Assembly: GCA_937903035.1 (NCBI GenBank)
Contig: CALCZP010000002.1
Span: 20,739 to 84,738, forward strand
Origin: an uncultured bacterium
GTDB taxonomy: Bacteria > Patescibacteriota > Minisyncoccia > Phycocordibacterales > UBA9973
Reading direction: 5' to 3'
Length of the DNA stretch: 64,000 nt
Shown: positions 217 to 14,817 of the stretch, piece by piece
How positions within the stretch are numbered: the first letter of the stretch is position 1
Layout of the letters: the number at the start of each line of letters is the position of its first letter
Translations under genes and position numbers: made by a program
The notes under the pieces: model-generated
Told to the model about the DNA's origin: nothing
What the model saw: only the letters and a program-made list of their open reading frames with translations
The model's database searches: none

Positions 217-239
217 AATCAAAACCTTAAAAACTATAT

Positions 240-743: not shown

Positions 744-778
744 ATCAAAATTCGTTTTAAAAACGCTATTTTGTACAA

Positions 779-822: not shown

Positions 823-830
823 TTGAAAAA

Positions 831-858: not shown

Positions 859-863
859 TTTAA

Positions 864-1385
864 TCATTTTTTGTTTTCAGCTTCATTAATCTTTTCTCTT
901 AACTCAGCCGCTTTTGGATAATCTTCATTTCGTACAGCTTCTTCCAGTTGCTTCCTGAGTATTTCAAGGTTTAATTCAGGGTCGATTTTTTTCCGCTTCT
1001 TCTCATCAATCGGAGCTAAAATCAGACCTTCTTTGAAGACAATGTATTCGTGCTCGCATTCTGCCACCATATTGATATAGGTGGTGACATTTTCAATAAC
1101 GAAATCATTATCTTCGTTTTCTCCTCTTGAGAAATCAAGCTCAAAATCATGCTCGGTCATTTCTGATCCGATACGCTTAACGTACACACATTCAGGAAAG
1201 ACTTCCATGAATTCTTCAACAGTATCTCCTTCGGGGAGGTGAATTATTCCGGTGTCATGATGAAGATAGAGACAATCCTTAATGACGAGGATGTGTTGGT
1301 TTTCGATAAACCCTTCATCACCAATATCCATTTGCGAAAGACGGCACTGGCGATGGCGAACATTTACTTTTCCAATAATGGGCAT
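864..1385 (-). CDS. hypothetical protein with a C-terminal UVR (UvrB/UvrC-type) motif
   Basis: The C-terminus LRKQLEEAVRNEDYPKAAELREKINEAE matches the UVR-domain consensus from UvrB/UvrC. The N-terminal domain is not recognised. Confidence 0.55.
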   Translation of the reverse strand: MPIIGKVNVRHRQCRLSQMDIGDEGFIENQHILVIKDCLYLHHDTGIIHLPEGDTVEEFMEVFPECVYVKRIGSEMTEHDFELDFSRGENEDNDFVIENVTTYINMVAECEHEYIVFKEGLILAPIDEKKRKKIDPELNLEILRKQLEEAVRNEDYPKAAELREKINEAENKK

Positions 1386-1496
1386 GGTTATGTGGTTTTA
1401 AGGTTATAGAATTTTGTTTAAATCCACATTACCATCTTACTTGACTTTGTCAAAGAAACGGGTAGAGTACGAGGAAACTCATTTAAAACATAAATT

Positions 1497-2717
1497 ATGT
1501 ACAAACTCGAACATGAATTACTCACGAAGTATGCAAAAGTAATGGTTCATTATGCTATTGGAAATGGTAACGGACTTAACAAGGGCGAAACAGTCTTTCT
1601 TATTGGTCAGGAGTGCACAAAGGATCTCTATCTCGAAATTTGCAAAGAAATTTGGCGAAGTGGAGGAAATGTAATCCATCGATACCTTCCTGATGAAGTA
1701 GGACGTTATGGTATAAACCGATCATTGCTTGAGATAGGTACCGATGAACAACTTACATTCTTTCCAACTCCGTATTGGCAAGGTGTTACTGATGTTATGG
1801 ATCATATTCTATTTATCATTGCTGATCCAGATATGCATGCATTGGATGGAATACTTGCTGAAAAAATTTGCAAAATGGAGGAATCAAAGGCTCCCTTTAT
1901 GGAAATGCGTGAAAAGAAAGAATCCGTAGGCAAACTCTCTTGGACACTCTGTTTGTATGGAACCGAGTCAATGGCCAAAGAAGCAGGTATAAATCTGCAA
2001 GAGTATTGGGAACAGATCATCAATGCTTGTTATCTCCAAGACGAAGATCCGGTTGCAACTTGGCGTAATACTAAGGAAGAGATTGTTAAAATCAAGTCTT
2101 GGCTTTCTGAACTCAAGATTGAAAGGGTGCACGTTGAAGCAGATGGAATTGATCTTTGGATCAAGGTTGGAGCAGATCGTAAATGGCTTGGAGCATCGGG
2201 GCACAATATACCAAGCTTCGAAGTCTTTACATCACCGGACTGGAGAGGAACATCTGGAAAGATTTTTTTCAATCAGCCGTTATACTATCAGTGTAAAAGG
2301 ATTTCTGGCATTCAGCTTGAGTTCAAAAATGGTGTTATTACTCATGCTTCAGCAGCAGAAAATGAAGATACGCTGTTACAGATGATTGCGATTGAAAACG
2401 CCAACAAAATAGGAGAGTTTTCTTTGACTGACAGACGTCATTCCAGGATTACCAAACCGATGGCAACAACTCTGTTTGATGAAAATATGGGTGGAAAATA
2501 TGGCAATACGCATATTGCACTTGGTATGTCCTATAAAGAAGCTTTTGTCGGTGATATTGGGGGCACTACAGATGAAGGATGGGAAGCGAGAGGTTTCAAT
2601 CTTTGTCATAAGGTTCACACCGACATCATCAGTACTGCAAACAGAAAAGTAACAGCTACTTTGGCAAACGGTGAGTCGTTAGTAATTTATGAAAACGGAC
2701 AATTTACAGTTGTCTAA
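1497..2717 (+). CDS. M29-family aminopeptidase (AmpS/PepS-like)
   Basis: 406 aa. The N-terminal pattern LLxKYAKVMVxYAIGxxxGLNKGETVFL and the overall length resemble thermophilic-aminopeptidase (M29) proteins. Family assigned from memory of the sequence pattern. Confidence 0.6.
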   Translation: MYKLEHELLTKYAKVMVHYAIGNGNGLNKGETVFLIGQECTKDLYLEICKEIWRSGGNVIHRYLPDEVGRYGINRSLLEIGTDEQLTFFPTPYWQGVTDVMDHILFIIADPDMHALDGILAEKICKMEESKAPFMEMREKKESVGKLSWTLCLYGTESMAKEAGINLQEYWEQIINACYLQDEDPVATWRNTKEEIVKIKSWLSELKIERVHVEADGIDLWIKVGADRKWLGASGHNIPSFEVFTSPDWRGTSGKIFFNQPLYYQCKRISGIQLEFKNGVITHASAAENEDTLLQMIAIENANKIGEFSLTDRRHSRITKPMATTLFDENMGGKYGNTHIALGMSYKEAFVGDIGGTTDEGWEARGFNLCHKVHTDIISTANRKVTATLANGESLVIYENGQFTVV

Positions 2718-2726
2718 TTTATTCAA

Positions 2727-2747
2727 GGAGCTTCGGCTCCTTTTTCT
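2727..2747 (+). terminator. Terminator hairpin AGGAGC-TTCG-GCTCCT plus TTTTTC after the aminopeptidase gene
   Basis: 6-bp GC-rich stem, UUCG tetraloop and a T-run, 10 nt after the stop at 2717. Confidence 0.55.
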
Positions 2748-2828
2748 ATTTATTCCGAACTCTTGAGGATGTTTGGAATTATTTGACAAAATAAAAAATA
2801 TTGTGTAATTTTGGTAAAAATAATCATT

Positions 2829-3091
2829 ATGAAACAAACTCTTGAAATGAAAACCTTATTTAAGAAAGGTGATAAAGTTAAAATCACCAGACTTGAAAAA
2901 ATGGTTACACTGACGAAGGTGAGGTATTCTCAGCTTCCTCGAAAGAAGTTGGTATTAAGATAACTCAGTCTCCAACTCAAGGTGCGGTAGGTATGGAGGT
3001 AAGGTTTGGGATGAGAGATGGGGTATGGAAATACCTGAATGGAAATACGTATAGCAAGAGAGATTCTGGGTATTCCATTGCAAAAATTTAA
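2829..3091 (+). pseudogene. Small gene interrupted by a frameshift in an A6 run (2896-2901). If the run is restored to A7 it gives an ~86-aa protein beginning MKQTLEMKTLFKKGDKVKITRLEKNGYTDEGEVFSASSKEVGIKITQSPTQGAVGMEV..., which may be a DUF2945 / hypervirulence-associated TUDOR-like small protein
   Basis: Frame A runs ATG 2829 to TAA at 2946. The -1 frame continues from 2903 to TAA at 3089-3091 with a coherent sequence. The junction is exactly at GAAAAAATGG. A promoter-like TTGACA sits at 2785 and a hairpin terminator at 3102-3131. Confidence 0.35.
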
Positions 3092-3101
3092 TAAAAACTA
3101 G

Positions 3102-3131
3102 AGATGCTTTAGTAATAACGCATCTTTTTTA
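3102..3131 (+). terminator. Terminator hairpin AGATGC...GCATCT plus TTTTTT
   Basis: 6-bp stem with a 12-nt loop, followed by T6. Confidence 0.4.
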
Positions 3132-3163
3132 TTTTGTCTAAATTAGATTCAAACATCGTTCAA

Positions 3164-3195
3164 GCATTCCGAACATTAGAGGATGTTCGGAATGC
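3164..3195. promoter_or_regulatory. Perfect 13-bp inverted repeat GCATTCCGAACAT-N6-ATGTTCGGAATGC, directly upstream of a promoter-like TTGACT(3203)...TAGACT(3224) for ORF 3247
   Basis: Read directly. The same half-site ATGTTCGGAAT recurs at 153-167, 2755-2782 (imperfect) and 3545-3569. Confidence 0.45.
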
Positions 3196-3246
3196 TCTGA
3201 TATTGACTCCTATTTAAAACCGACTAGACTGGAGAAAACATTTGCC

Positions 3247-3624
3247 ATGAGTAAGCTATACAAATGCAAAAAGAAAGTATTGGATTTTATACAAGCTGCT
3301 GGTGATACTGGGGCTACAGAAAGTCAGCTAGTATGTGTTATTAATGAATTTAATAGGGAAGAATGTATGTTTGAATACGATATCAATCCTCTAACTCCAG
3401 CTTCAATTATTGAGCAGCTTGTATTCAAGTTCGAAGACCTTCTTTTTGAAAAGAGATTTATTCCAAAGAAAGAACTTTTCTTCTTTTGGATTTACAAATC
3501 TTCGCCACCTCCAGGAAAGGTGGTTTTTCTTTTGTCTCTACTAGCTCGGAATGTTGAAGGATGTTCGAATGAGTTTAGGGTAATAAAAAACCCATCACGA
3601 ATGATGGGTTGTTGTAAGAATTGA
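3247..3624 (+). CDS. hypothetical protein (125 aa). The N-terminal region could be a winged-helix DNA-binding fold, so it may be the regulator for the adjacent palindromes (speculative)
   Basis: ORF with a promoter-like sequence and an operator-like inverted repeat upstream. Its 3' end runs through a hairpin at 3589-3615, so the true stop may be earlier. Confidence 0.4.
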   Translation: MSKLYKCKKKVLDFIQAAGDTGATESQLVCVINEFNREECMFEYDINPLTPASIIEQLVFKFEDLLFEKRFIPKKELFFFWIYKSSPPPGKVVFLLSLLARNVEGCSNEFRVIKNPSRMMGCCKN

Positions 3625-3631
3625 ATGAATC

Positions 3632-4033
3632 TTACTCAACAGTGATTACTCCTTTACGAGTTTTTGTTGAATAATAAGCCTTAATTGTAACAATTTCTTT
3701 TCTATAAAATCCAAGAAGGTAGTCTTCCTCAGCGAAACATTTGAAGTCCTCAAAACTGAGTTTTTTAGCATACACTCCTGGTTCTATTTTCTCCGGCTTT
3801 TTAACAAAAAATGATTCCGAAACACATTCTTTGTTAGTGGAAAAAGTTAGGTTCCAGGATTGACCACCGCCATCTTCCGCCTCAATAGAGTTGATGATTG
3901 CAGCAATATACTTTTCATTTTCATTTTTTTCAAAACAAAAAGGAACTAACCTTTTTTCGGCTAAAAGGCGTAAACCGTCAAACAATTCCTCTCTTGAGGG
4001 ACCGTTTGTAATCTGAATTGTTTTTTGTAACAT
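3632..4033 (-). CDS. hypothetical protein (133 aa)
   Basis: Clean ORF convergent with 3247-3624. No recognisable motif. Confidence 0.45.
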   Translation of the reverse strand: MLQKTIQITNGPSREELFDGLRLLAEKRLVPFCFEKNENEKYIAAIINSIEAEDGGGQSWNLTFSTNKECVSESFFVKKPEKIEPGVYAKKLSFEDFKCFAEEDYLLGFYRKEIVTIKAYYSTKTRKGVITVE

Positions 4034-4203
4034 CGTACGATGAATTTAAAAGAACTCTTTATGCGTTTTACAGAGGATAAAGAATACTCTGGAGCTATGA
4101 AGCAATCTTTCCGTACAGAAAGAACTATCTGCATCATAGCACAAAATAATTGACAAGTCAAGTATGATATGCTATCATACAGTTAAATCAAACTTAAAAA
4201 ATT

Positions 4204-4581
4204 ATGAACTATAAGCTTTTCTACACATGCCTTATAACATTCTTTGGCATGATGTTTTGGTTACTGTTTCAGCAGGGCTCTATGGACTTTATTGCTGTCA
4301 GAATAATCATCGCCTTTATCTCAGCAATCCTTCTTTTCTTTTCTGTAACATGGAATGAAAAAGGTGGTTGGAAAAAGGCAGTGGTAGTACTTCTGGTGAT
4401 AATAGGTTTCGGTTCAATCGCAAACTTTGCTTTTGGCTGGGGTATCGCACATTATCCAGGAATTACACTACTGACAATGCCAGGGATACTTGTTCTTGGA
4501 CTTTTATACATAAAGTTTGTGGAACCAAAAATTCTGAACAAAAAGCCAAAACAGAAAATGCGTCCTGAGATTTATAATTAA
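4204..4581 (+). CDS. small integral membrane protein (3-4 TM helices)
   Basis: Hydrophobic throughout. The upstream TTGACA (4150-4155) and extended -10 TGCTATCAT overlap the palindrome GTATGATA-TGC-TATCATAC (4162-4180). Confidence 0.5.
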   Translation: MNYKLFYTCLITFFGMMFWLLFQQGSMDFIAVRIIIAFISAILLFFSVTWNEKGGWKKAVVVLLVIIGFGSIANFAFGWGIAHYPGITLLTMPGILVLGLLYIKFVEPKILNKKPKQKMRPEIYN

Positions 4582-4769
4582 ACTAATTTGTCCTTTTACC
4601 GAAATGCCTCACTTAATAGTGGGGCTTTTTTCTTTCCTCCAGACCTTCACAACATACACAACGTTCACGTGCTCGCTTGGAGGAACGCATTTCGAACTTT
4701 TGACTGGGCTGAATTATACAGCGATACTAAGTTCCACTTAGAAAATACTAACAGGTTGCTTGCACTAGC

Positions 4770-6617
4770 TTAAAGAGTTACCTGTCTGACAATCTCTCTA
4801 ATTTCAATACTTTCTGGGTTTGCATCGTCTGCAAGATATGTCGTGAGTTGGTTATTGCAGAAATCGATTGTTTCAGTAAGACCCTTGGTGATCCCTAGAT
4901 AATGTTCTAGATCACCATTTTTAAGAATATACATTTTGTTTGCGTACTCTCCGTCAATTCTAGCCTCCCAATCTGTATTTCTCGCTTTGAATGCAGTTAC
5001 TTCAGCAGGTGCTTTTACGCTCTGTCCTTTGTCTGCAGGATAGAAAAGATCGATAGCAAAATCCAGATCATTGATGCCATAGACTGATAAACCAAAGCTC
5101 GTAAAAAGAGCACTCCATTCTTGATGATTACCTTTGCCGTTAGTTTCAAGCACAGCAATCTCTTGATCAAGTTCTGGGTACTTTTCTTGAATGATAGATT
5201 TGAAAAAGTATCGATCTGTATCGCCCTCAACTAAGAGAACTTTTTTGGCAAAGAATGCGTAAGTTGATCTGGTATTGTCGAGTATCTTGATGAGTATTCT
5301 TTGCTCAGTTGTCAGTGTAGGTGCTTTGATGGCGGTGTATCCATCAGATGTTAGGGAGAAACGCTTTACTTGATTGATAGTCGATGAATTGATCAGTGCT
5401 TCTGAATGAGTTACCAAAATATATTGACAACTTTGTTCTTTGTTCAGTTCTCGAATAACCTGCAGATATTCATTTTGAAACTGGTAATGAAGATGTATCT
5501 CTGGCTCATCAATAATAACTACGCCACCTTTTAGATCACCACGCCCATAAGACTCGAAGACGAGGTGAATAATTGCTTTTTGTCCCGCACTCAAACTGTT
5601 TATGTCATTGAGCTTTTTGTTTCGGCGCAAATCAAGAAACTCAAATGCATATTGCCAAGTTCTGAGGTCTATCAACCTGATCTTGCATTCAAGATTGATG
5701 AGTTTCAGTTTCTTATTTATCGAAATAATAAAGGGTAGTTCATTAGCACTCTTTTCGCATTCTGCATCGTCCATTTTTCCTGAAATGAGACTAAAATGTT
5801 TTTCCGCTACTCGAAGCCTGACAAGACCAAAGATGCTTGGCTCTCCTTGGTCATTTGCATTTAAGCTTTTTGAGAAATCACGAGTTTTGATTTGTTGCAT
5901 TTGCTGTGATGGAAGCTGATCTCGTAGTGAGATAGATGTATCAAAAGCATGATAGTTTCGATAACTTGAAATTAAAGTGAAAGACTCATACAACGGGGCA
6001 ATCGGTGCTGTTGGGTGTTCTATGTTGTATATCTCGATAAGCTCTTTATAGAAATTGTAGTCAGAAAGATATTCAAACCCAAAATCGTGAGCACCTTGTT
6101 GAAATGCGACTGAAAAAGACTGGTTAGTTTTGTTCAAGGTAATATCAAGTGTGTAGTTTTCTTGATGTGCCGTCAGTCCTGTAAGACCTCGTACTGTATA
6201 TGAAAGAAGTGGGTTAAGAGAAGCCTGATTGTCTCTGATGTGTTGTAGGTTCTGCAGATCAATAGCATCGAGCTTTATTTCAAGTCTAATTTTCTGATCT
6301 TTGTCCTCAGTGTTCCAGTTTGGTTCCAAGCGAAAACCGCTGTATGTCTGGGCATTCACAGGTGTAAGGATTTGCTTTCTCTCGTCCGCAGTTACAGTAC
6401 TTTTCCGTGAATACAACTCTTGATTTACATTGAACTGCTTATATAGCACTCTCTTGAAAAGAAAGTTTACAACCTCCAATGCAGTAGATTTTCCTGCACC
6501 ATTCTCTCCAATAATGATATTTAGACCATCCTCAAAGACGATCTGCTCAGCGTTAGCTACATCGTCATGGTGCTTAAAACTTAGGATGTTTGATACTCGT
6601 AATGACTTGATCTTCAT
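4770..6617 (-). CDS. OLD-family (overcoming lysogenization defect) ATP-dependent endonuclease, class-1-like: N-terminal ABC/AAA ATPase plus C-terminal TOPRIM
   Basis: Walker A GENGAGKST near the N-terminus. Walker B/D-loop LVIIDEPEIHLH. C-terminal TOPRIM signature VLLVEGDTDRYFF, with DxD (GINDLDF) about 45 residues later. No adjacent UvrD-like helicase, so it is not a Gabija pair. Confidence 0.75.
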   Translation of the reverse strand: MKIKSLRVSNILSFKHHDDVANAEQIVFEDGLNIIIGENGAGKSTALEVVNFLFKRVLYKQFNVNQELYSRKSTVTADERKQILTPVNAQTYSGFRLEPNWNTEDKDQKIRLEIKLDAIDLQNLQHIRDNQASLNPLLSYTVRGLTGLTAHQENYTLDITLNKTNQSFSVAFQQGAHDFGFEYLSDYNFYKELIEIYNIEHPTAPIAPLYESFTLISSYRNYHAFDTSISLRDQLPSQQMQQIKTRDFSKSLNANDQGEPSIFGLVRLRVAEKHFSLISGKMDDAECEKSANELPFIISINKKLKLINLECKIRLIDLRTWQYAFEFLDLRRNKKLNDINSLSAGQKAIIHLVFESYGRGDLKGGVVIIDEPEIHLHYQFQNEYLQVIRELNKEQSCQYILVTHSEALINSSTINQVKRFSLTSDGYTAIKAPTLTTEQRILIKILDNTRSTYAFFAKKVLLVEGDTDRYFFKSIIQEKYPELDQEIAVLETNGKGNHQEWSALFTSFGLSVYGINDLDFAIDLFYPADKGQSVKAPAEVTAFKARNTDWEARIDGEYANKMYILKNGDLEHYLGITKGLTETIDFCNNQLTTYLADDANPESIEIREIVRQVTL

Positions 6618-6661
6618 GGTGTAATACTAGCATTTTTTGCCCTGTTTAAGTATTTCAAAAA

Positions 6662-7600
6662 ATGTTAAAATACACTTTACTTATGAGCAATGTAACAAAG
6701 CCCAAAAAAAGGACTTCAAAGAGCCTTAAAAACAAGAAGAAGTTTACTTTTATAGACTTATTTGCAGGGATCGGTGGCTTTCATTACGCTTTCCATAACG
6801 TAGGTGCAGAATGCGTCTTTTCTTCAGAATGGGACGAACACGCAAGAAAAACCTATCAGACCAACTTTGAAAAAATAAGTCCTGATCTATTTAAGTCTGG
6901 TAATTTTGTTGGAGATATTACAAAAGTAGATAAGAAAGCTATTCCTGATTTTGATATTTTGACGGGAGGATTTCCGTGCCAGCCATTTAGTCAGGCAGGG
7001 TTCAAAAAAGGTTTTAGTGATACGAGAGGCACACTTTTTTATGATATTGCGGACATAATCAAAGTTAAAAAACCTAAAGCTTTTTTCCTAGAAAATGTTA
7101 GAGGGCTTCTCGCTCACGATAACGGTAAAACTTTTGAAACGATCAAGAGTGTTTTGACTGAAGAGTTAGGATACTCACTATTTTTTAATATCGTTAAAGC
7201 TTCTGATCATGGCTTGCCTCAAAATCGCCCTCGACTATTTATGATCGGTTTTAGAAATAAGAAAATACCTTTTTCTTTCCCTGAAAAAAGACCCCTGGAG
7301 TTCACCATGTCAGATGTATTTGGTGAGCCTGTAAATCGTGATATTGGCTTTACTTTGCGTGTTGGTGGCAAAGGCTCTGTAATTACTGATAGACGAAATT
7401 GGGATAGTTATATGGTAAATGGAAAGCCTAAAAGATTATCCTCAAAGGAGGGTAAGAAAATGCAGGGGTTTCCAGATGACTTTGTTTTCCCAGTCTCTGA
7501 AAGTCAGGCAATGAAGCAATTAGGAAATAGCGTAGCCATATACGCCATACAAGATTACGCACAAAAGATAATTGAAGCACTTGAAAATCATTATGAATAA
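6662..7600 (+). CDS. DNA (cytosine-5)-methyltransferase, the modification subunit of a type II R-M system
   Basis: m5C-MTase motifs: I FIDLFAGIGGF, IV GGFPCQPFS, VI FLENVRGL, VIII QNRPRLFMIGF, X GNSVAI. The true start may be the internal Met at 6683. Confidence 0.9.
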   Translation: MLKYTLLMSNVTKPKKRTSKSLKNKKKFTFIDLFAGIGGFHYAFHNVGAECVFSSEWDEHARKTYQTNFEKISPDLFKSGNFVGDITKVDKKAIPDFDILTGGFPCQPFSQAGFKKGFSDTRGTLFYDIADIIKVKKPKAFFLENVRGLLAHDNGKTFETIKSVLTEELGYSLFFNIVKASDHGLPQNRPRLFMIGFRNKKIPFSFPEKRPLEFTMSDVFGEPVNRDIGFTLRVGGKGSVITDRRNWDSYMVNGKPKRLSSKEGKKMQGFPDDFVFPVSESQAMKQLGNSVAIYAIQDYAQKIIEALENHYE

Positions 7601-8675
7601 TCAAAAACAAACAACAGGAAATACAGGAGAATGGAGTGAGTTATACGCTCTCGCTTTTCTCTTGGCTAATGGTGGTGCATACGGTGCTGACAAAGATCAA
7701 AACAGAAAAGAGGATTTGTTCTACAAGGTTCTGAAGATAATCTTTGCTGAAAAAGTGGGTAAAGAAAAGATGACTTACGAAATCAATGATGGAGTTATCG
7801 ATGTCTTTGCAGGTTTGAATAAAATCGCCTCAATAAAAACACAAAAGATACAAAGCATTCTTAAAAAGATGTTCGAGACTTTATCTGCAAAAAATGTAGG
7901 GCGAGCCTTTCCACTAGAAGCAGGTTCAGAGATGATGCAACTCTTACAGAAACAAGTCATTAAGGCTTCAAGCTCAGATAAGAAAGACCTTGATCTAGTG
8001 GTTCTTGATCTGAAAACAAACCAGCCAAGTCCAGAGATTGGCTTCAGTATAAAATCCCAACTCGGAAGCCCCTCAACTCTAGTAAATGCTTCAAGTGCAA
8101 CAAACTTTACTTACGAGATACTTGATAAGGATATGAAAGTCCCTACGCAATTACCAAAATTGCACGAGAAAAATGTTAAAGATAACATCAATCTTTTGAT
8201 GGCTTCTGGATATAACATTGTTTTTCGTAAAGTAGACAGTGAGAAGTTTGAACACAACCTTTCTTTGATCGATAGCAATCTGGCGACATATATCGCAAAA
8301 ATACTTTTGTCATATTACGCACGAGAAGCAAGTAATTTATCGGGTCTAGTTTCTCATAACTTTCCTGCATCTGATCAACAGAGCAAACAGCCAACTCATA
8401 AGATAAAAGAGTTCCTGAGTATTATGGCTTTGGGAATGATGCCTAATACTGATTGGAATGGAATACTAACAAGTCTTGGAGGTTTTCTGTTGGTTAAAAA
8501 AGATGGTGATGTATTGTGCTATTACCTCTACAACCTCGAAGATTTCCAAGAATATCTGCTAAATAATACAAAGCTCGATACACCAAGCACCACTCGATAC
8601 GGAATTGGAAAAATCATAGAGGAAGACAATCGCTTTTATATAAAGCTCAATCTACAGGTTCGATTTACTAAATAA
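7594..8675 (+). CDS. Type II restriction endonuclease, HpaII-family-like
   Basis: The ATG at 7594 overlaps the MTase stop (ATGAATAA), which is typical R-M coupling. The N-terminus GNTGEWSELYALAFLLANGGAYGADKD matches my recollection of the conserved HpaII-family N-terminal block (GEWSELY...). ORF-track start 7572 trimmed to 7594. Confidence 0.6.
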
Positions 8676-8794
8676 ATTACACAAAAGATCGCTCTACACA
8701 TCTGTCTTTTTGAGGTGTTTTTCGATATAATGCAATTACAGCTGAATAAAGCCGACCTAACCCCTACAGCCTTAAAACTTTAGGATATGGTCGC

Positions 8795-8951
8795 AAACCG
8801 CAAGCAACGTAAAAACCCGATCATTAGGGCGTTGCTTGCGTTACATGGGGAAACCTGTGTATGAGTCTTCGGACTCACCTAGTGGTCGGATTTTTGCGTC
8901 TTACCCTCCTAGTTTTAAAAATAAAGCAAAACAAATCGCAAGCAACGATTA
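8795..8951 (+). promoter_or_regulatory. Structured leader in front of ORF 8951. CGCAAGCAACG occurs at 8799-8809 and again at 8937-8947 (the second copy abuts the ATG). A single complementary CGTTGCTTGCG lies at 8830-8840. A GAGTC-UUCG-GACTC hairpin lies at 8864-8878
   Basis: Read directly. Two identical segments compete for one complement, and the second copy covers the ribosome-binding region. Confidence 0.35.
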
Positions 8952-9379
8952 TGAATACAAACAATATCTCTTCCTGGAGTACAGGAAGAAAGTTAGTCGT
9001 TTTTTTATTAGTTCCCATCTTCATTGCAGTAGTCGTAGGTATGGCAAGCAGTCCAACTCCTGCTCCTGTCCAAAAGACGGCAGAAGAGATCGCATACCAG
9101 AAGAAGCATGACTTTGCTTCATTGGCGAAGATGAATGTCGAGATGATGCTCAAAGCTCCGTCTACAGCAAAGTTCAATACTTCTCCGACCATCAAGGAAG
9201 AGAATGGTATCTACTCGATCAACTCATGGGTTGATAGCGAGAACAGCTATGGAGCGATGATCAGAAGCCAGTGGTCAGCCAAGGCTCACTACATCGGAGG
9301 AGACTCTGAAGATGAGATCGGAACAGGCGCAAACTGGATCATTGACGAGTTCATTTTTGACGGGAAAAAGGTCAAATAG
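8951..9379 (+). CDS. membrane-anchored / secreted hypothetical protein (142 aa from the internal Met)
   Basis: N-terminal TM segment LVVFLLVPIFIAVVVGM. ORF-track start 8861 trimmed to the Met that follows the structured leader. Confidence 0.45.
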   Translation: MNTNNISSWSTGRKLVVFLLVPIFIAVVVGMASSPTPAPVQKTAEEIAYQKKHDFASLAKMNVEMMLKAPSTAKFNTSPTIKEENGIYSINSWVDSENSYGAMIRSQWSAKAHYIGGDSEDEIGTGANWIIDEFIFDGKKVK

Positions 9380-9390
9380 CAAATGATGCA

Positions 9391-9594
9391 TTAACAGTGG
9401 AAAAAACAGTGGTGAGGGGGTCAAAAACACGCAAAAAAACACGCAAAACGGTATCTGATCTTTTTGGACAATAACAGTGTGAAAAACAGTGTGGGGAGGA
9501 TCAAAAACAGTGAAAAAAACAGTGAAAAGTACCTCGAAAAGCATCACAAGAAAAAGTACATTAACAGCGATAAAAACAGCGAGAGAGGGTCAAA
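9391..9594. repeat. Iteron-like composite direct-repeat array of three ~37-bp units spaced ~80-88 bp apart. Each unit is a doublet of AACAGTG/AACAGCG separated by A5-6, followed by a G-rich TGAGGGGGTCAAAAAC-type tail. Interleaved doublets ACGCAAAA x2 and AGTGAAAA x2
   Basis: Units at 9391-9428, 9471-9508 and 9559-9594, read directly. They lie immediately upstream of the winged-helix gene 9630-10262. Confidence 0.6.
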
Positions 9595-9629
9595 TTGCGG
9601 TGTACTTTGTCGACAAAAAATACTAAAGT

Positions 9630-10262
9630 ATGTCTATGACAAAGTTGGCATCTAATGCAAACCAAAAAGTAAAGCTAATCCTAGAAAAAATCGTTGAAGA
9701 ATACGATTTAGGAAATGGTAGTGGCGACATCACACTAGGAAGTCATCATTTCCTAAAAGATACAGGTATAGATACTAATCAATTCCTAAGGATACTGAGA
9801 AATCTTGAACAGAACCATATTCTTGAAAGCTTTAAAGTGCACGCAAACGCTAGAACTGATGATGGCGATCTGGTCTGTTTCTTGAAGCCATTAAACCACT
9901 TTAAATCAAGAGCTGAAGATTATATTGAAAGACTTGAAGTTCCAGTAGAGTCTGCTCCTGGTTTCTTCTTGTATCTTGATAAAAGCAATTTTTGGCATAC
10001 TGATAAAAAGAAATACTCTTACCCGATGAATAACGCACCAGGACGTTTAGCGATCTTAAAATACCTAGCAGAAAACAAGGGAGTTCAACCTACTAAAGAA
10101 ATAGCTTCTTTTTTGGGTAGAACAACTAAAAGGATTATGAATGATGTGGGAAAAATAAGAGCAGAAATCAAAGAACATCTAAAGCTCCCAGATGTTATAG
10201 AAAACAGCAAGCCAGATGGTTACTACATCAACCCCAAGTATACAGTTATAGTTACTGACTAA
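9630..10262 (+). CDS. hypothetical DNA-binding protein (putative winged-helix). Candidate replication initiator or regulator acting on the upstream repeats
   Basis: 210-aa ORF. The C-terminal segment RLAILKYLAENKGVQPTKEIASFLGRTTKRIMNDVGKI is HTH/winged-helix-like. Its position next to the iterons is only suggestive. Confidence 0.45.
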   Translation: MSMTKLASNANQKVKLILEKIVEEYDLGNGSGDITLGSHHFLKDTGIDTNQFLRILRNLEQNHILESFKVHANARTDDGDLVCFLKPLNHFKSRAEDYIERLEVPVESAPGFFLYLDKSNFWHTDKKKYSYPMNNAPGRLAILKYLAENKGVQPTKEIASFLGRTTKRIMNDVGKIRAEIKEHLKLPDVIENSKPDGYYINPKYTVIVTD

Positions 10263-10382
10263 GTACTCTCGCTCTCCTGTTAATATCTAGGATCAATGTC
10301 TTATCTTAAAAAGGTTTTTTAAGATGTGAAGAGTACTAGAAGCGTATATACAGAGTACATATCTGACACATAAAATCATTAT

Positions 10383-10565
10383 GTGATCAGCGATGCAACA
10401 ATTAAGAAGTTCCAACAAGTAGTCGAGAGTGAGTACCATGTCATTCTTGATGAAAAGGAAGCGAGAGAAGTTCTCACTAACTGGGTTGGTTATTTTGACT
10501 TGCTTGCAAAGATCGATCACAGAATACAATCAGAAAGTCAGAGGTCGTTAGTGAGTCCTCTTTAA
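10383..10565 (+). CDS. small hypothetical protein (60 aa)
   Basis: ORF in a 530-nt gap. Sequence looks protein-like but has no RBS or motif support. Confidence 0.25.
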   Translation: MISDATIKKFQQVVESEYHVILDEKEAREVLTNWVGYFDLLAKIDHRIQSESQRSLVSPL

Positions 10566-10574
10566 AAAACCGAC

Positions 10575-10660
10575 TACTAACTTGTATTTGCATGTAGATA
10601 ATAGCGCCTGACACACTGAGTGAGACTTCTCAGCAGGCGACCTCATCTGCATACAAGTCA
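10575..10660. other. Nested imperfect inverted repeats (CTTGTATTTGCATGTAGAT ... ATCTGCATACAAG enclosing CGCCTG...CAGGCG). Candidate oriT, att or sRNA-like structured site
   Basis: Read directly. Lies upstream of the RHH-like small gene and the recombinase. Confidence 0.25.
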
Positions 10661-10792
10661 AGCAACTGTATCGAGATGTTTGCTATGAGGGGGTTGAAAC
10701 ATTTTGATAGATTTTTTGAAAAATTACTAATTTAACTATCCCAATCTGTAAAAAACCAATACAGATGAGGGAGGAAAAAGTCTAAACAAAAT

Positions 10793-11023
10793 ATGTCAAC
10801 AAAGAGACAAAAGCTATATAGCAAAGAAGATATTAAGCTTGCACAAGAAGAAAGTAAAAGAGTTGGAAAATACTTTACTCGTAAAACAGCCAAAAGGAAA
10901 ACAATACAGGTTAGGATCGGTGAAAAATGGCATCAAAAGATCAAAGAAGTCGCTGGTGAAGAAAAGATAATGATTTCATTTTTTCTTGATCGAGTTTGTG
11001 AGCACTTCTTTAAGCATTACTAA
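10793..11023 (+). CDS. small basic protein (76 aa), possibly a ribbon-helix-helix DNA-binding protein (MobC-, Arc- or RDF-like)
   Basis: Good SD (AGGGAGG) 8-14 nt upstream. Lys/Arg-rich. The KTIQVRIGEKWHQKIKEVA segment is compatible with an RHH beta-strand plus helix. It sits directly 5' of the recombinase. Confidence 0.45.
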   Translation: MSTKRQKLYSKEDIKLAQEESKRVGKYFTRKTAKRKTIQVRIGEKWHQKIKEVAGEEKIMISFFLDRVCEHFFKHY

Positions 11024-11038
11024 TTATTTACTAATCAC

Positions 11039-12610
11039 ATGAATAAACCAACAAAAACAAAAGCCGTTATATATGCCAGAGTTTCTTCTAAAGAGCAGGA
11101 AGAAACTGGCTACTCATTAAACTCACAAGAGGAGCTTCTAAATAATTACTCAACAAGTCGAAACGACTTCAATGTAGTAAAAGTATTTAGGATTTCTGAG
11201 TCTGCGAGTGGGAAAATCCAGCGCACAACCTTTACTGAAATGATTAAGTTTATGGACAAGAATAAAATAAATATCCTTGTCTGTGAGAAAGTCGATCGAC
11301 TCACGAGAAACTTCAAAGATGCATTGATTATCGATGAATGGCTAGATCAGGATGAAAACCGACAGGTGCACTTGGTCAAGGACTCTCTAGTGATGCATAA
11401 GCATTCAAAATCGCAAGAAAAGCTTAACTGGGGTATTAGAATACTCTTCGCAAAAAATTACACAGACAATCTTTCTGAAGAAGTTAAAAAGGGTCAGAAG
11501 CAAAAAATAAAAGAGGGTTGGCTACCAACCACTCCTCCACTTGGTTATAAAACTGTAGGAGAAAAAGGACATAAAATCCATGTGATCGATGAGACTGTTG
11601 CACCCTATATAAAAGAAATGTTTGCCTTGTATGCCACAGGTAATTATTCAACAGTTGCGTTGGGAGAAAAAATGTACAAACAAGGCTTCCGAAGTCGATC
11701 AGGTGTTCAGGTAGTAAAAAGCCAAATACATAAAATACTCTCTGAGCCTTTTTATTACGGAAAACTTGTATGGAATGGAAATCTTTTTGAGGGCAAACAC
11801 GACCCACTTATCTCAAAAGATTTGTTTGATCAGGTTCAGGCAAAAATGTCTCGTGGTGCAATACCGTATCACAATAAAGGGCTTACTGAGTTAAGAGGTA
11901 AAATCTTCTGCGGTTCTTGTAATAAAACCGTTACTTGGGAATTACAAAAAGGCACTATGTATGGTGGTTGTAAGCAGTGTAAGGCACAGCTTGGCAAAGA
12001 TAAGAAGTATATCCACCAGGAAGACCTAGAAAGCGATCTACTGGCTCATATTGCCTCTGTAGCTCCTCTTAGTGAGAAAGTTATAGATGTGCTTAATCAG
12101 GCTTTAAAAGAGAGCCACAGTGAGGAAATAGGGCTACATGAGACTCAAACCAGGAACATCAACAATCAACTAGAAAGAATAAGGCAGAGAATGAAAAACA
12201 TGTACCTGGACAAGATTGATGAGAGAATAAGCGGAGACTTCTACGATGAGCAGGTCGCACAGTTTGCAGAAGAAAAAGAAGCATTACTCCACTCTCTGAA
12301 AAAACTCGAAGCAGATAATACTGAATACTACCGAGTTGGATTTATGATCCATGAGATTGCACTGAGAGCGAGAGAGATTTATCTCAATGAAAACGCATCG
12401 ATTGAAGAGCGCAGAATGCTTCTTGCTTATGCATTCTCGAACATCACTGTTTTAGCAGGAAATATAAAGGCAGAATACACAAAACCTTTTGCTTTTCTTG
12501 CAGAATGGATGCCAAGAGTAAATGAAGTTCTCGAACTGGAAAAAACCCTTGGTACAAAAGGAAAAGAGAGCACTTTCGTGCCCTCTCATCCTATCGTGCT
12601 CCCCCGGTAG
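11039..12610 (+). CDS. large serine recombinase (resolvase/invertase N-terminal catalytic domain, recombinase domain, zinc ribbon and coiled coil)
   Basis: N-terminal VIYARVSSKEQ with catalytic Ser, and DRLTRN. Zinc ribbon CGSCNK...CKQCK. 523 aa. The stop codon overlaps the tRNA-Asn 3' end. Confidence 0.9.
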   Translation: MNKPTKTKAVIYARVSSKEQEETGYSLNSQEELLNNYSTSRNDFNVVKVFRISESASGKIQRTTFTEMIKFMDKNKINILVCEKVDRLTRNFKDALIIDEWLDQDENRQVHLVKDSLVMHKHSKSQEKLNWGIRILFAKNYTDNLSEEVKKGQKQKIKEGWLPTTPPLGYKTVGEKGHKIHVIDETVAPYIKEMFALYATGNYSTVALGEKMYKQGFRSRSGVQVVKSQIHKILSEPFYYGKLVWNGNLFEGKHDPLISKDLFDQVQAKMSRGAIPYHNKGLTELRGKIFCGSCNKTVTWELQKGTMYGGCKQCKAQLGKDKKYIHQEDLESDLLAHIASVAPLSEKVIDVLNQALKESHSEEIGLHETQTRNINNQLERIRQRMKNMYLDKIDERISGDFYDEQVAQFAEEKEALLHSLKKLEADNTEYYRVGFMIHEIALRAREIYLNENASIEERRMLLAYAFSNITVLAGNIKAEYTKPFAFLAEWMPRVNEVLELEKTLGTKGKESTFVPSHPIVLPR

Positions 12611-12670
12611 GATTCGAACCTACGACCAATCGCTTAACAGGCGACTGCTCTACCGCTGAGCTACAGGGGA
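12599..12670 (-). tRNA. tRNA-Asn (anticodon GUU)
   Basis: Minus-strand sequence TCCCCTGTAGCTCAGCGGTAGAGCAGTCGCCTGTTAAGCGATTGGTCGTAGGTTCGAATCCTACCGGGGAG folds as a canonical cloverleaf (7-bp acceptor, GCTC/GAGC D-stem, anticodon loop CTGTTAA, T-loop TTCGAAT). It begins UCCCCUG like enterobacterial tRNA-Asn. No CCA is encoded. Confidence 0.85.
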
Positions 12671-12729
12671 ATATATGCTCATAAATGAGCGAGGAAACTA
12701 TACCATTTCAGGCTGGCATTTTCAATCCT

Positions 12730-12957
12730 TTAAAGCGGGCGACCGTCGGTTGTTGGATTGTTCCAAACGTCGAATCGGAACCACCCATAGCCTTCGGGTG
12801 GGGTTGCTAGGAGTTCTCGAGACCCAGGTGCAGCACTATCAAATGCCCAGTGGTCATACGGTGCTGCAGTTGGTGCAATCCATTCGCCTCCAGAGAGGTG
12901 GGGGATGGCGAACCAGAGAAAGAATATAAGGCCAACTATTGCGATAATGCGCTCCAT
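12730..12957 (-). CDS. small secreted/membrane protein (75 aa), unusually GC-rich
   Basis: Signal/TM segment IIAIVGLIFFLWFAI. A -10-like TATAGTATA lies upstream on the minus strand. It could instead be a non-coding RNA region (contains a C-UUCG-G hairpin). Confidence 0.3.
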   Translation of the reverse strand: MERIIAIVGLIFFLWFAIPHLSGGEWIAPTAAPYDHWAFDSAAPGSRELLATPPEGYGWFRFDVWNNPTTDGRPL

Positions 12958-13005
12958 GCGGCTATACTATAGGGCTTTATCAGTCAGAACAATCTTGCCA
13001 TTCCT

Positions 13006-14430: not shown

Positions 14431-14457
14431 TCTCTGACAGTGGTATACTGAAAGAGT

Positions 14458-14817
14458 ATGAATATTTCAATCAAATCGACAAATCTGGAGCTTACACCGG
14501 CCTTGAAAGACTATGCCGAAAAGCGCTTGCGGACGGTAACGAAGTTCACCGAAGGGGATGCGACGGTAAATGTTGAGATCGGCAAAACTACCTCACATCA
14601 CAAAAGTGGCGATATTTATGTTGCAGAAGTAAACGTTATTACACCGCTTGGCAAGCAGTACCGTGCAACATCAGAAAAATCTGATCTCTATGAGGCGATT
14701 GACGATGTTCGCGATGAAATCTCTCGTGAACTCAATGATGCAAAAGGACGCAAACAAACACTCTTTCGCCGTGGCGCACATAAACTCAAAGACATTGTGA
14801 AAGGGTTCAGAACTTAG
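14458..14817 (+). CDS. hpf: ribosome hibernation promoting factor / ribosome-associated inhibitor (HPF/RaiA/YfiA family)
   Basis: MNISIKSTNLELTPALKDYAEKRL is the characteristic N-terminus of the S30AE/HPF family. 119 aa. Confidence 0.8.
   Translation: MNISIKSTNLELTPALKDYAEKRLRTVTKFTEGDATVNVEIGKTTSHHKSGDIYVAEVNVITPLGKQYRATSEKSDLYEAIDDVRDEISRELNDAKGRKQTLFRRGAHKLKDIVKGFRT

What the first reader, a model, noticed from the sequence alone, without database searches (positions are those of the whole stretch)
2720..12675. Integrated plasmid-like defence island at tRNA-Asn, driven by a large serine recombinase
A tRNA-Asn gene is directly abutted and overlapped by a large serine recombinase gene. Upstream lie an RHH-like protein, a Rep-like winged-helix protein with an iteron-like array, a complete type II R-M system and an OLD-family nuclease, all in DNA that is visibly AT-richer than the core (pyk onwards). 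This combination of replication-origin-like repeats and an integrase without phage structural genes resembles an integrative plasmid or defence island. Such elements are poorly catalogued in CPR-like genomes. The left end is not defined, and the AT-rich tract runs to the window start.
Basis: partly seen in the sequence, partly recalled or inferred. Interest (0 to 1): 0.7.

Follow-up and report, generated by a model that had tools for sequence, protein, structure and literature searches.

The report
Serine-recombinase defence element at tRNA-Asn
A 7.9-kb mobile element, cut in and out of the end of a tRNA-Asn gene by a large serine recombinase and carrying a restriction system and an OLD nuclease, sits in this Saccharibacteria-like genome; it belongs to a large, undescribed family of such elements in ultra-small (Patescibacteria) bacteria that also carries the orphan 'LOOT' RNA.

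Summary

- **Ends.** A contig from another sample is 100% identical to window 2225-4674 joined directly to 12595-20235. The element is therefore window 4675-12601 (7,927 bp), flanked by a 7-bp repeat, CGTGCTC, that covers the last bases of tRNA-Asn. The genes at 2720-4674 are not part of it.
- **Layout.** The left 4 kb is cargo: an OLD-family nuclease and an HpaII-type restriction-modification (R-M) pair. The right 3.9 kb is a conserved backbone: LOOT RNA, a membrane protein, a direct-repeat array, a 210-aa protein, a 60-aa and a 76-aa protein, and the large serine recombinase (LSR).
- **Attachment sites.** They follow the serine-integrase pattern. The element end mimics the tRNA T-arm, with TTCGAAC placed 5 bp further out.
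- **Recombinase gene.** It spans attP, so integration replaces a conserved 32-residue C-terminal tail. A metagenome contig carries an intact attP junction.
- **Family.** It has at least 518 relatives, mostly in Patescibacteria and usually abutting a tRNA 3' end. R-M cargo recurs, and LOOT RNA was found in 34 of the loci searched.

How the element transfers or replicates is unknown.

The parts
4668..4674 (.). attL core: left copy of the 7-bp direct repeat CGTGCTC
   Evidence: In the empty-site contig L002, positions 2444-2450 match both window 4668-4674 and 12595-12601.
4675..4707 (+). Left end of the element, the attP right half-site: GCTTGGAGGAACGCATTTCGAACTTTTGACTGG. It mimics the tRNA T-arm, with TTCGAAC placed 5 bp further from the core.
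   Evidence: The same motif, preceded in 12 of 13 sequences by GCTC, lies at the left end of 11 independent elements (13 sequences matched, two of which duplicate others, plus L091). The offsets were read.
4675..4773 (+). Detached 3' end of the recombinase gene: 32 codons plus the stop (AWRNAFRTFDWAELYSDTKFHLENTNRLLALA*). It is read only when the element is circular.
   Evidence: Reconstructing the circle gives a 553-aa ORF. The same frame stays open for 31-40 codons and encodes a conserved peptide in all 14 sequences examined. It is seen contiguous with the recombinase in L093.
4770..6617 (-). Cargo: OLD-family nuclease, a stand-alone 615-aa protein with an ABC-type ATPase and a TOPRIM domain
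   Evidence: Pfam AAA_15 at 3.5e-20 and OLD-like_TOPRIM at 1.5e-14. PADLOC Old at 4.9e-27 and GajA at 2.4e-26.
6662..7600 (+). Cargo: C5 cytosine DNA methyltransferase of the type II R-M pair
   Evidence: PF00145 at 1.9e-84. PADLOC MTase_II at 3e-103.
7572..8675 (+). Cargo: HpaII-family restriction endonuclease
   Evidence: PF09561 at 1.9e-85 over the full profile. The element contains no CCGG, against 10 expected from base composition and 2.7 from a Markov estimate.
8754..8877 (+). LOOT RNA (RF03000), the first feature of the conserved backbone. A TATAAT lies at 8726-8731 and a U-run at about 8890-8895.
   Evidence: Rfam score of 74 bits against a gathering score of 46.4. 25 of 37 pairs show compensatory changes. 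Flanking motifs are conserved. Backbone homology with L091 starts at window 8735.
8951..9379 (+). Membrane-anchored 142-aa protein downstream of LOOT (an alternative start at 8861 gives 172 aa)
   Evidence: The N-terminal hydrophobic segment scores KD19 2.84. phrog_13160 matches at 2.4e-13, function unknown. The gene call in L005 gives 142 aa.
9389..9590 (.). Array of five pairs of 7-bp direct repeats with a 12-bp period, directly upstream of the 210-aa gene. Likely operator boxes.
   Evidence: Equivalent arrays lie upstream of homologous genes in L008, L009, L010 and L089.
9630..10262 (+). 210-aa tandem winged-helix DNA-binding protein: a MarR/SarA-like N-terminal half and an OmpR/PhoB-type C-terminal domain
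10383..10565 (+). 60-aa two-helix protein conserved next to the recombinase across the family. Candidate directionality factor or regulator; function unknown.
   Evidence: tblastn hits in about 27 loci. 71 representative clusters, all 43-155 aa with no long fusion. Single-sequence model with pLDDT 90 shows two helices.
10793..11023 (+). 76-aa basic protein, weakly Arc/RHH-like, ending 16 nt upstream of the recombinase gene
   Evidence: PHROG Arc-like repressor hits at E about 0.004. Conserved at 54-80% identity in L006-L014.
11039..12610 (+). Large serine recombinase in its integrated form (523 aa, ending ...PIVLPR*). The last 16 nt are the core plus tRNA sequence.
   Evidence: Resolvase, Recombinase and Zn-ribbon domains. 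S16, R87 and R90 are invariant, and R14 and the four Cys at 291/294/311/314 are invariant or nearly so, in 33 homologues. PHROG integrase at 4e-78.
12564..12587 (-). Hairpin followed by a U-rich tail on the tRNA strand, inside the recombinase coding end and the attP left arm. Possible replacement terminator for tRNA-Asn.
   Evidence: Terminator-like site with 10 pairs and tail TTCCTTTTGT. The hairpin appears to be kept with paired changes in L013 and L075 (by eye).
12595..12601 (.). attR core: right copy of CGTGCTC. It covers tRNA positions 71-73 plus 4 nt of trailer.
12598..12670 (-). tRNA-Asn(GTT), the integration target. It is kept intact because the element supplies identical bases.
   Evidence: ARAGORN. 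Rfam 72 bits. The tRNA is identical in the empty-site contig.

Best explanation
Window 4675-12601 is a 7,927-bp integrative element that moves by site-specific recombination catalysed by its own large serine recombinase (LSR).

**Integration (inferred from the junctions).** The circular form carries attP across the end of the recombinase gene. Its left arm lies in the coding sequence ...TCATCCTAT. Its right arm is GCTT-GGAGGA-ACGCA-TTTCGAAC. The chromosomal attB is the 3' end of tRNA-Asn, read as CCCC-GGTAGGA-TTCGAAC on the plus strand. Strand exchange occurs somewhere inside the shared CGTGCTC. Only GCTC is conserved across the family. The tRNA is therefore rebuilt exactly.

**Effect on the recombinase gene (shown by sequence; consequence inferred).** Integration splits the gene. 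A conserved 32-residue C-terminal tail is left at the far end of the element and replaced by two tRNA-encoded residues. This may bias the enzyme's activity or direction.

**Cargo.** The left 4 kb is exchangeable. Here it holds an OLD-family nuclease and an HpaII-type R-M pair, presumably giving the host phage and foreign-DNA defence and making the element hard to lose.

**Backbone.** The right 3.9 kb is conserved. A promoter-proximal LOOT RNA precedes a membrane-protein gene. A tandem winged-helix protein most likely binds the paired direct repeats upstream of its own gene as a transcription regulator. Two small proteins of 60 and 76 aa are candidate directionality or regulatory factors. The recombinase comes last.

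**Unknown.** How the element passes between cells and whether the circle replicates.
For: **Ends and mobility**
- Empty site: L002 equals window 2225-4674 joined to 12595-20235 at 100% identity, with a 7-bp overlap.
- Independent Logan contigs cross attL and attR (L005). Others break in or at the tRNA (L001, L003, L004).

**Recombinase**
- The catalytic and DNA-binding domains are intact and the key residues are conserved.

**Attachment sites**
- The conserved attP right arm marks the left end of 11 independent elements of 2.5-10.3 kb.
- The GGAGGA/GGTAGGA motif sits at the same distance from the core in attP and attB. TTCGAAC sits 5 bp further out in attP.
- An attP junction is present in a JGI contig. 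L093 reads recombinase C-terminus (66% identity, E = 1e-27), then core, then attP right arm, then element genes.
- The tail ORF is open and conserved in all 14 sequences examined.

**Family**
- 2,096 protein hits at E <= 1e-10 and 518 genomic relatives.
- 64 of 79 loci have a reverse-strand tRNA T-arm motif within -60 to +260 nt of the recombinase end, against 0.05 expected. The adjacent tRNAs are mostly Asn, with some Gln, Arg and Ser.

**Modular cargo**
- L091 has a recombinase in the same 90%-identity cluster but carries an N6_N4 methyltransferase and DndB in place of OLD and HpaII.
- L008 has a 73%-identical recombinase but a 95-96%-identical HpaII R-M pair.
- R-M genes recur across the elements.

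**The 210-aa protein**
Against: - No excision junction was found for this exact element: two exact-pattern scans returned nothing.
- The attP contig is only 1 kb. It could come from a head-to-tail tandem rather than a free circle.
- The left arm of attB lies in non-conserved trailer DNA that differs between hosts. How the enzyme recognises that half is unclear.
- The centre of symmetry falls on GC, a palindromic dinucleotide. That would be unusual for a serine integrase, so the crossover position is not settled.
- The roles of the tail, the 60-aa and 76-aa proteins, LOOT and the 210-aa protein are inferred from position and fold only.
- No transfer machinery is present.
Confidence: 0.85

Rival explanations
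1. Integrative plasmid. On this view the 210-aa protein is a replication initiator, the repeat array at 9389-9590 is an iteron origin, and the excised circle replicates autonomously.
For: - The protein has two winged-helix domains, which at a coarse level recalls iteron-binding initiators.
- A dense array of short direct repeats lies next to its gene. The pairing recurs in L008, L009, L010 and L089.
- An unintegrated attP configuration exists for a family member.
Against: - There is no Rep_3 or other Rep Pfam, NCBIfam or PHROG match.
- The repeats occur as pairs with a 12-bp period directly upstream of the gene. That is the arrangement OmpR-family regulators use (established knowledge).
- Sister elements lack both protein and array: L006 at the same site, L090, and the 2.5-kb L013.
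- The element has no helicase, primase or polymerase.
Confidence: 0.15
2. Phage satellite or remnant prophage: an element that relies on a helper phage for packaging. On this view the recombinase is a phage-type integrase and LOOT plus the small proteins are helper-sensing regulators.
For: - The recombinase matches the PHROG 'integrase' family (4e-78). The membrane protein and OLD match PHROG families of unknown function.
- The element is small, uses a tRNA site, and one relative carries a superinfection-immunity gene (L006). All three resemble satellites.
Against: - No capsid, terminase, portal, primase or other structural or packaging family was detected in this element or in 12 relatives.
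- There are no matches in IMG/VR for the junction patterns.
- The closest recombinases in deposited phage genomes are only about 28% identical.
Confidence: 0.1
3. Fixed, no longer mobile genomic island. On this view it is an ancient insertion whose recombinase is decaying, and the AT-rich tract from 1 to 12.6 kb is one old island.
For: - The integrated recombinase lacks the 32-residue tail of the circular form.
- Window 1-4674 is equally AT-rich.
- No junction was found for this exact element.
Against: - Occupied and empty alleles have 100% identical flanks over 2.4 kb and 7.6 kb. That implies very recent gain or loss.
- The catalytic residues are intact.
- Tail loss is a family-wide consequence of the gene spanning attP, not decay.
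- Recombinases in the same 90%-identity cluster sit in elements with different cargo.
Confidence: 0.05

Closest known systems
Serine-integrase (large serine recombinase) systems of temperate phages and integrative elements: phiC31, Bxb1, A118/LI, TP901-1, and SCCmec CcrA/B
   Same: - It has the same three-domain enzyme: resolvase, recombinase and zinc-ribbon domains. NCBIfam CcrB matches at 6e-31, well below the model's cut-off.
- attP and attB are short and non-identical, sharing only a small core.
- An inner motif sits at the same distance in both sites, and an outer motif sits 5 bp further out in attP. This matches the structural model for these enzymes (established knowledge; sequence evidence).
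   Different: - The target is the 3' end of a tRNA gene. To my knowledge that is typical of tyrosine integrases, not serine ones.
- The gene itself spans attP.
- The closest enzymes in deposited phages and plasmids are only 28-31% identical.
- No phage or conjugation genes are present.
Tycheposons of Prochlorococcus (bioRxiv 10.1101/2020.12.28.424599)
   Same: - They are small cargo-carrying elements that integrate and excise at tRNA genes.
- Their hosts have streamlined genomes lacking plasmids and conjugation.
- They have modular backbone and cargo parts, and variable DNA accumulates next to the tRNA.
   Different: - 910 of 937 tycheposons and related elements use tyrosine recombinases, and many carry primase or helicase replication genes. 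This family has a serine recombinase and no replication enzyme.
- The cargo here is mainly defence rather than nutrient acquisition.
SSV-type archaeal integrases and integration-dependent immunity of mycobacteriophages (own knowledge; review PMC8371274 listed, not read)
   Same: attP lies inside a gene of the element, so integration changes the gene product. SSV1 also targets a tRNA gene.
   Different: - Those systems use tyrosine recombinases.
- In SSV1 the gene is split in two. In the mycobacteriophages the gene concerned is the repressor.
- Here only the last 32 residues of a serine recombinase are exchanged, and no function for the exchange has been shown.
LOOT RNA motif (Rfam RF03000; Weinberg et al. 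2017, PMC5737381; Rfam 14, PMC7779021)
   Same: Window 8754-8877 scores 74 bits against a gathering score of 46.4, and its helices covary.
   Different: - The papers I could read call it only a metagenome-based RNA. From memory it was known only from human oral metagenomes, with no assigned organism or function.
- Here it has a defined context as a backbone feature of the recombinase elements.
- That context extends beyond oral taxa to groundwater-type Patescibacteria.
OmpR/PhoB-family transcription factors
   Same: The C-terminal domain of the 210-aa protein superposes on their DNA-binding domains at about 2 A over 84-90 residues. Paired direct repeats are their usual targets (established knowledge).
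   Different: It has no receiver domain. A second winged helix is at the N-terminus instead. The Pfam Trans_reg_C model does not match even at E <= 10.

Membership tests
Large serine recombinase (serine integrase) | N-terminal resolvase catalytic domain with the serine nucleophile and conserved Arg residues | tested here: met
   PF00239 matches at 4.2e-21 over residues 9-160. S16, R87 and R90 are invariant and R14 is nearly invariant in 33 homologues.
Large serine recombinase (serine integrase) | Recombinase domain followed by a zinc-ribbon domain with four Cys | tested here: met
   PF07508 matches at 3.4e-16. PF13408 scores 21.9 bits, just under its 25.3 cut-off. C291 and C294 are invariant, and C311 and C314 are nearly invariant.
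Large serine recombinase (serine integrase) | Distinct attP and attB with a short shared core, and an outer half-site motif shifted by about 5 bp | tested here: met
   The core is CGTGCTC. TTCGAAC lies at +12 to +18 in attB and +17 to +23 in attP, while GGTAGGA/GGAGGA starts at +5 in both. This is sequence evidence only.
Large serine recombinase (serine integrase) | Catalyses attP x attB recombination, with excision needing a directionality factor | not testable with these tools
   The empty site and the attP junction are indirect evidence. The 60-aa and 76-aa proteins are only candidates.
Iteron-plasmid replication initiators (Rep_3 / RepA / RepE / pi) | Sequence or fold homology to the initiator family | tested here: not met
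Iteron-plasmid replication initiators (Rep_3 / RepA / RepE / pi) | Iterons next to the gene, with an AT-rich unwinding region and host initiator boxes | tested here: inconclusive
   Direct repeats are present. They are arranged as promoter-proximal pairs. Unwinding elements and DnaA boxes were not examined.
OmpR/PhoB-type winged-helix DNA-binding domain | Beta-sheet, three helices and a C-terminal hairpin wing that superpose on solved members | tested here: met
OmpR/PhoB-type winged-helix DNA-binding domain | Match to the Pfam Trans_reg_C sequence model | tested here: not met
   Not listed even at E <= 10.
Type II restriction-modification, HpaII type | Adjacent C5 methyltransferase and HpaII-family endonuclease | tested here: met
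   PF00145 at 1.9e-84 and PF09561 at 1.9e-85, with full-length coverage and overlapping genes.
Type II restriction-modification, HpaII type | CCGG specificity | not testable with these tools
   Indirect only: the element has 0 CCGG in 7,927 bp against 10 expected from base composition and 2.7 from a Markov estimate.
OLD-family nucleases | N-terminal ABC-type ATPase fused to a C-terminal TOPRIM nuclease domain | tested here: met
   AAA_15 over residues 1-409 and OLD-like_TOPRIM over 455-519. PADLOC Old is the best hit.
OLD-family nucleases | Class assignment by partner gene (for example the Gabija GajB helicase) | tested here: not met
   No helicase or other partner is adjacent. The neighbours are the element end and the methyltransferase. 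It is therefore a stand-alone type rather than Gabija.
LOOT RNA (RF03000) | Score above Rfam's gathering threshold, with covarying helices | tested here: met
   74 bits against 46.4. 25 of 37 pairs show compensatory changes in 8 copies.

The most novel reading that the evidence does not exclude
This element is one member of a large, undescribed Patescibacteria-wide family of small 'split-integrase' elements with three linked properties.

1. The family is a major vehicle for exchanging restriction and other defence genes among bacteria that lack plasmids and conjugation.
2. The serine recombinase gene spans attP. Integration swaps a conserved 32-residue tail, and this acts as a built-in switch of recombinase activity or direction.
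3. The orphan LOOT RNA is the family's hallmark. It acts as a leader or small RNA controlling an element-encoded envelope protein.
Probability: 0.4. Interest if true: 0.85.

Novelty: new variant of a known kind. Interest (0 to 1): 0.7.

Why it matters
**Gene flow.** Patescibacteria (CPR) have tiny genomes, mostly lack CRISPR and have no known plasmids or conjugation. How they trade defence genes is an open question. This locus gives base-precise ends, a conserved attP, and a recurring backbone-plus-cargo layout found in hundreds of genomes. That makes the question testable.

**LOOT RNA.** It gains its first genomic context: always inside these elements and almost always just upstream of a membrane-protein gene.

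**A possible tool.** A recombinase with a defined attP and a universal tRNA-Asn attB is an obvious candidate for an integration vector in Saccharibacteria, where genetic tools are scarce.

**Tail exchange.** If it proves regulatory, the swap of the recombinase tail on integration would be a new way of setting directionality in serine integrases.

Tried and rejected
- **Long direct repeats.** I looked for a long repeat of the tRNA 3' end to mark the left border. None exists, as expected for a serine recombinase. The border came from the empty-site contig instead.
- **Exact attP junction of this element.** No hit in IMG/VR. A semi-degenerate version found nothing in JGI metagenomes or IMG/VR. 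Only a looser family-level pattern found one junction, L093.
- **Circular contigs.** 18 short contigs showed no terminal overlap.
- **Degradation-tag idea.** I considered that the tail, ending ...LLALA, is an ssrA-like tag, as in integration-dependent immunity. I rejected it because most relatives carry an extra polar last residue (N, R, H or Q).
- **LOOT as a guide RNA.** I considered that LOOT might guide the recombinase. By eye I saw no complementarity to the att sites. This was not tested formally.
- **Function of the 60-aa protein.** No family matches. The model is a plain two-helix hairpin. All 71 relatives are 43-155 aa with no long fusion. The function stays unknown.
- **Second island at tRNA-Tyr.** I looked briefly at 38.3-43.6 kb and the ORF list showed nothing obvious. 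I did not pursue it.
- **LOOT supplementary text.** The supplement of the 2017 paper is not held in the library.

Full report
**1. What is at the coordinates**

ARAGORN and Rfam place tRNA-Asn(GTT) at 12598-12670 on the minus strand. The 523-aa ORF at 11039-12610 has Resolvase, Recombinase and a weak zinc-ribbon match. Its last 13 nt overlap the tRNA 3' end.

Upstream lie seven further features:
- a 76-aa ORF at 10793-11023, with only weak Arc-like PHROG hits;
- a 210-aa ORF at 9630-10262;
- a repeat array at 9389-9590;
- an HpaII-family endonuclease at 7572-8675;
- a C5 methyltransferase at 6662-7600;
- an OLD-family ATPase-TOPRIM protein at 4770-6617.

GC rises from 0.34-0.40 to 0.45-0.47 at about 12.5 kb. 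Other AT-rich patches occur later in the window.

**2. True extent and evidence of mobility**

I looked up the exact pyruvate kinase protein in public assemblies. This returned contig L002 from a different sample (ENA ERZ650304). L002 is 100% identical to window 2225-4674 and then continues directly, also at 100%, with window 12595-20235.

The two alignments overlap by 7 nt, CGTGCTC, which occurs at both 4668-4674 and 12595-12601. The element is therefore window 4675-12601, or 7,927 bp counting one core copy. Its GC content is 38.0%.

The three small ORFs at 3247-4581 are in the empty-site contig and are not part of the element. The core covers tRNA positions 71-73 and four trailer bases, so the tRNA is identical with or without the insert.

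Logan contig L005 crosses both ends of the insert. Three other Logan contigs break inside or at the edge of the tRNA, and L004 starts at 12597. This is what an assembly graph does at a polymorphic site.

**3. Attachment sites**

The element's first 33 nt are GCTTGGAGGAACGCATTTCGAACTTTTGACTGG. The same motif, preceded in 12 of the 13 matched sequences by GCTC, recurs at the left end of 11 independent elements among the fetched loci. Unrelated host DNA lies to its left (L091). Element sizes are 2.5-10.3 kb.

The right arms compare as follows:

| Site | Sequence after the core | Inner motif | TTCGAAC position |
|---|---|---|---|
| attB (tRNA) | CCCC-GGTAGGA-TTCGAAC | +5 | +12 to +18 |
| attP | GCTT-GGAGGA-ACGCA-TTTCGAAC | +5 | +17 to +23 |

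The inner motif is in register and the outer motif is 5 bp further out in attP. This is the arrangement the structural model of serine integrases predicts for telling attP from attB (established knowledge, not tested here).

The attP left arm (...ACTTTCGTG...TCATCC-TAT) is a rough mirror of the right arm and lies in the recombinase coding sequence. The symmetry centre falls near GC of GTGCTC. The crossover dinucleotide cannot be fixed from sequence.

A hairpin with a U-rich tail on the tRNA strand lies at 12564-12587. It appears to be kept with paired changes in relatives (by eye). It may terminate tRNA-Asn transcription once the native downstream DNA has been displaced by 7.9 kb. That role is an inference.

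**4. The recombinase gene spans attP**

Joining 12601 to 4675 extends the ORF to 553 aa. It then ends ...PIVLAWRNAFRTFDWAELYSDTKFHLENTNRLLALA*, with its stop overlapping the convergent OLD stop.

In all 14 sequences with a mapped left end, this frame stays open for 31-40 codons. The 14 comprise 12 independent elements, one duplicate and the L093 junction. The frame encodes a conserved peptide, AWR(D/N)(A/S)FRTFDWAGLYSD..FHLENTN(K/R)LL(A/S)LA. The first eight residues are the attP arm read as protein. The rest is conserved beyond the site.

A family-level attP pattern found one JGI metagenome contig, L093. In it the recombinase C-terminus (66% identity to the window protein, E = 1e-27) runs through the core and right arm into this tail (...HPIMLAWQDAFRTYNWAK...INHLLSLV*). 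It is followed by an element gene and, by eye, the first 45 nt of a LOOT RNA. The model search did not score that truncated copy.

L093 is an unintegrated configuration, either a circle or a head-to-tail tandem.

Among 120 recombinase homologues, most end with ...VLPR or ...LLRG or read on into tRNA sequence (...RRQDSNLRPID). By eye, about a dozen carry tail-like endings, including P0023, P0117, P0009, P0027 and P0106.

**5. Family**

- The recombinase has 2,096 database hits at E <= 1e-10, with more than 50% identity across Saccharibacteria, Paceibacterota, Wolfebacteria, Collierbacteria and others.
- A scan of species-representative genomes confirmed 518 relatives.
- In 64 of the 79 fetched loci, a reverse-strand tRNA T-arm motif lies within -60 to +260 nt of the recombinase end. 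In 45 it lies within the first 20 nt. The expected number by chance is 0.05.
- ARAGORN calls the adjacent tRNAs mostly Asn, with some Gln, Arg and Ser.
- In four Saccharibacteria loci the expected tRNA is replaced by a group I intron hit. This fits the published intron-containing tRNA-Asn genes of Patescibacteria (PMC13011429).
- The best matches in deposited phages and plasmids are only 28-31% identical.

**6. Backbone and cargo**

L091 carries a recombinase from the same 90%-identity cluster. At the nucleotide level it aligns with the window element only over the first 95 bp and over window 8735-12640, at 81%. Its cargo is an N6_N4 methyltransferase with a DndB-family protein.

L008 has a 73%-identical recombinase but a 95-96%-identical HpaII pair.

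Across 12 elements with mapped left ends, plus L088, L090 and L091, cargo includes:
- HpaII, AlwI, BglII and Eco57I-type systems;
- several methyltransferases;
- a protein kinase;
- an HATPase_c_3/DUF4325 pair;
- an S24/LexA-like protein;
- NUDIX and others.

No capsid, terminase, relaxase, type IV secretion or replication enzyme was detected. The window element contains no CCGG, against 10 expected from base composition and 2.7 from a Markov estimate. The rest of the window has 75.

**7. The 210-aa protein**

The first word-based search found only 6 proteins including the window's own. A profile search then raised this to 17.

Paired direct repeats directly upstream of its gene occur in the window, L008, L009, L010 and L089. 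The most economical reading is an autoregulating transcription factor. Replication initiation is not excluded, but nothing supports it.

**8. LOOT RNA**

Rfam finds LOOT (RF03000) at 8754-8877 and in every close relative examined. I built a model from eight copies. It found 36 hits in 34 sources out of 85 searched (1.35 Mb).

One full-length hit, a second copy in L054, lies downstream of the recombinase. All the others lie upstream of it within the fetched flank. The hits include Nomurabacteria, Staskawiczbacteria, Chisholmbacteria, Woesebacteria and Paceibacterota MAGs.

The flanks are conserved. A TATAAT and an ACAACTGAATA-like motif lie upstream, and GGGnGCTTTTTG lies downstream.

In 33 of 34 cases, an ATG ORF starting 30-111 nt downstream encodes a protein with a strongly hydrophobic segment. 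Among control ORFs the fraction is 26% (binomial P about 1e-18). These proteins are otherwise unrelated: YceG-like, trypsin-like, zinc-ribbon plus transmembrane segment, superinfection-immunity, and peptidoglycan-binding.

LOOT is therefore either a small RNA with its own terminator or a leader/attenuator for an envelope-protein gene. The papers I could read describe it only as a metagenome-based RNA.

**9. Comparison with the literature, and verdict**

- Full-text searches found no description of serine-recombinase elements at tRNA genes in Saccharibacteria or Patescibacteria.
- A study of Patescibacteria genomic islands reports R-M-bearing islands. It mentions neither integrases nor tRNA sites.
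- Tycheposons are the nearest concept. They use mainly tyrosine recombinases and carry replication genes.

The extent was too large, and the plasmid/Rep reading is not supported.

The element is a new variant of a known kind. Two features deserve follow-up: a recombinase gene that spans attP, and LOOT RNA as a family hallmark.

Noticed in passing
window 8754-8877; also L006, L008-L012, L017, L022, L025, L032, L042-L046, L049, L050, L052, L054, L057, L059-L061, L065, L069, L071, L072, L075, L077, L081, L086, L089-L091: LOOT RNA (RF03000), described in the papers I read only as a metagenome-based RNA, is a backbone feature of this recombinase element family. It occurs well beyond oral taxa. In 33 of 34 cases it lies 30-111 nt upstream of a gene for a membrane-anchored or secreted protein.
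   Followed up: partly
L012 10726-10969, L013 11509-11781, L014 11705-11984, L016 1663-1954 (all minus strand): In four Saccharibacteria loci a group I intron (RF00028) lies right after the recombinase gene, where tRNA-Asn is expected. This fits the published intron-containing tRNA-Asn of Patescibacteria (PMC13011429). These elements therefore also use the intron-bearing tRNA as their site.
   Followed up: partly
window 2753-2778 and 3167-3192; weaker copies near 147-172 and 3546-3567: A 26-nt palindrome, TTCCGAAC-N10-GTTCGGAA, occurs twice in the AT-rich DNA left of the element (3 matches at up to 3 mismatches against 0.27 expected). Each of the two good copies lies just upstream of a TTGAC(A/T) promoter-like hexamer. 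It may be an operator for the small genes at 2.8-4.6 kb.
   Followed up: partly
window 1-4674: The DNA left of the element is as AT-rich (36.4% GC) as the element itself. Window 2225-4674 is shared with the empty-site strain. It holds an M29 aminopeptidase, a UVR-motif protein and small ORFs with no family matches. It may be older material accumulated next to the tRNA-Asn hot spot. No second attP motif or LOOT copy was found there.
   Followed up: partly
L054 7355-7472 and 15038-15166, with tRNA-Asn at 20236-20308: One Saccharibacteria locus has two LOOT copies, and its tRNA-Asn lies about 8.7 kb beyond the recombinase. This suggests two family elements in tandem at one tRNA.
   Followed up: no
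L040, L046, L051, L055, L064 (record titles): Recombinases of this family, at 45-48% identity, also occur in contigs binned as archaea: Methanodesulfokora, Bathyarchaeia, Pacearchaeota, Nanoarchaeia and Methanoperedens. Others are binned as Gammaproteobacteria or Bacteroidota. I did not check whether this is real spread or mis-binning of Patescibacteria contigs.
   Followed up: no
window 19500-20500, 29000-31000, 38500-43000, 50000-54000: Further AT-rich patches (GC 0.34-0.41) interrupt the roughly 0.46 GC background. One starts right after tRNA-Tyr (38260-38344). An ORF list for 38.3-43.6 kb showed nothing obviously integrase-like, but no domain search was run.
   Followed up: partly
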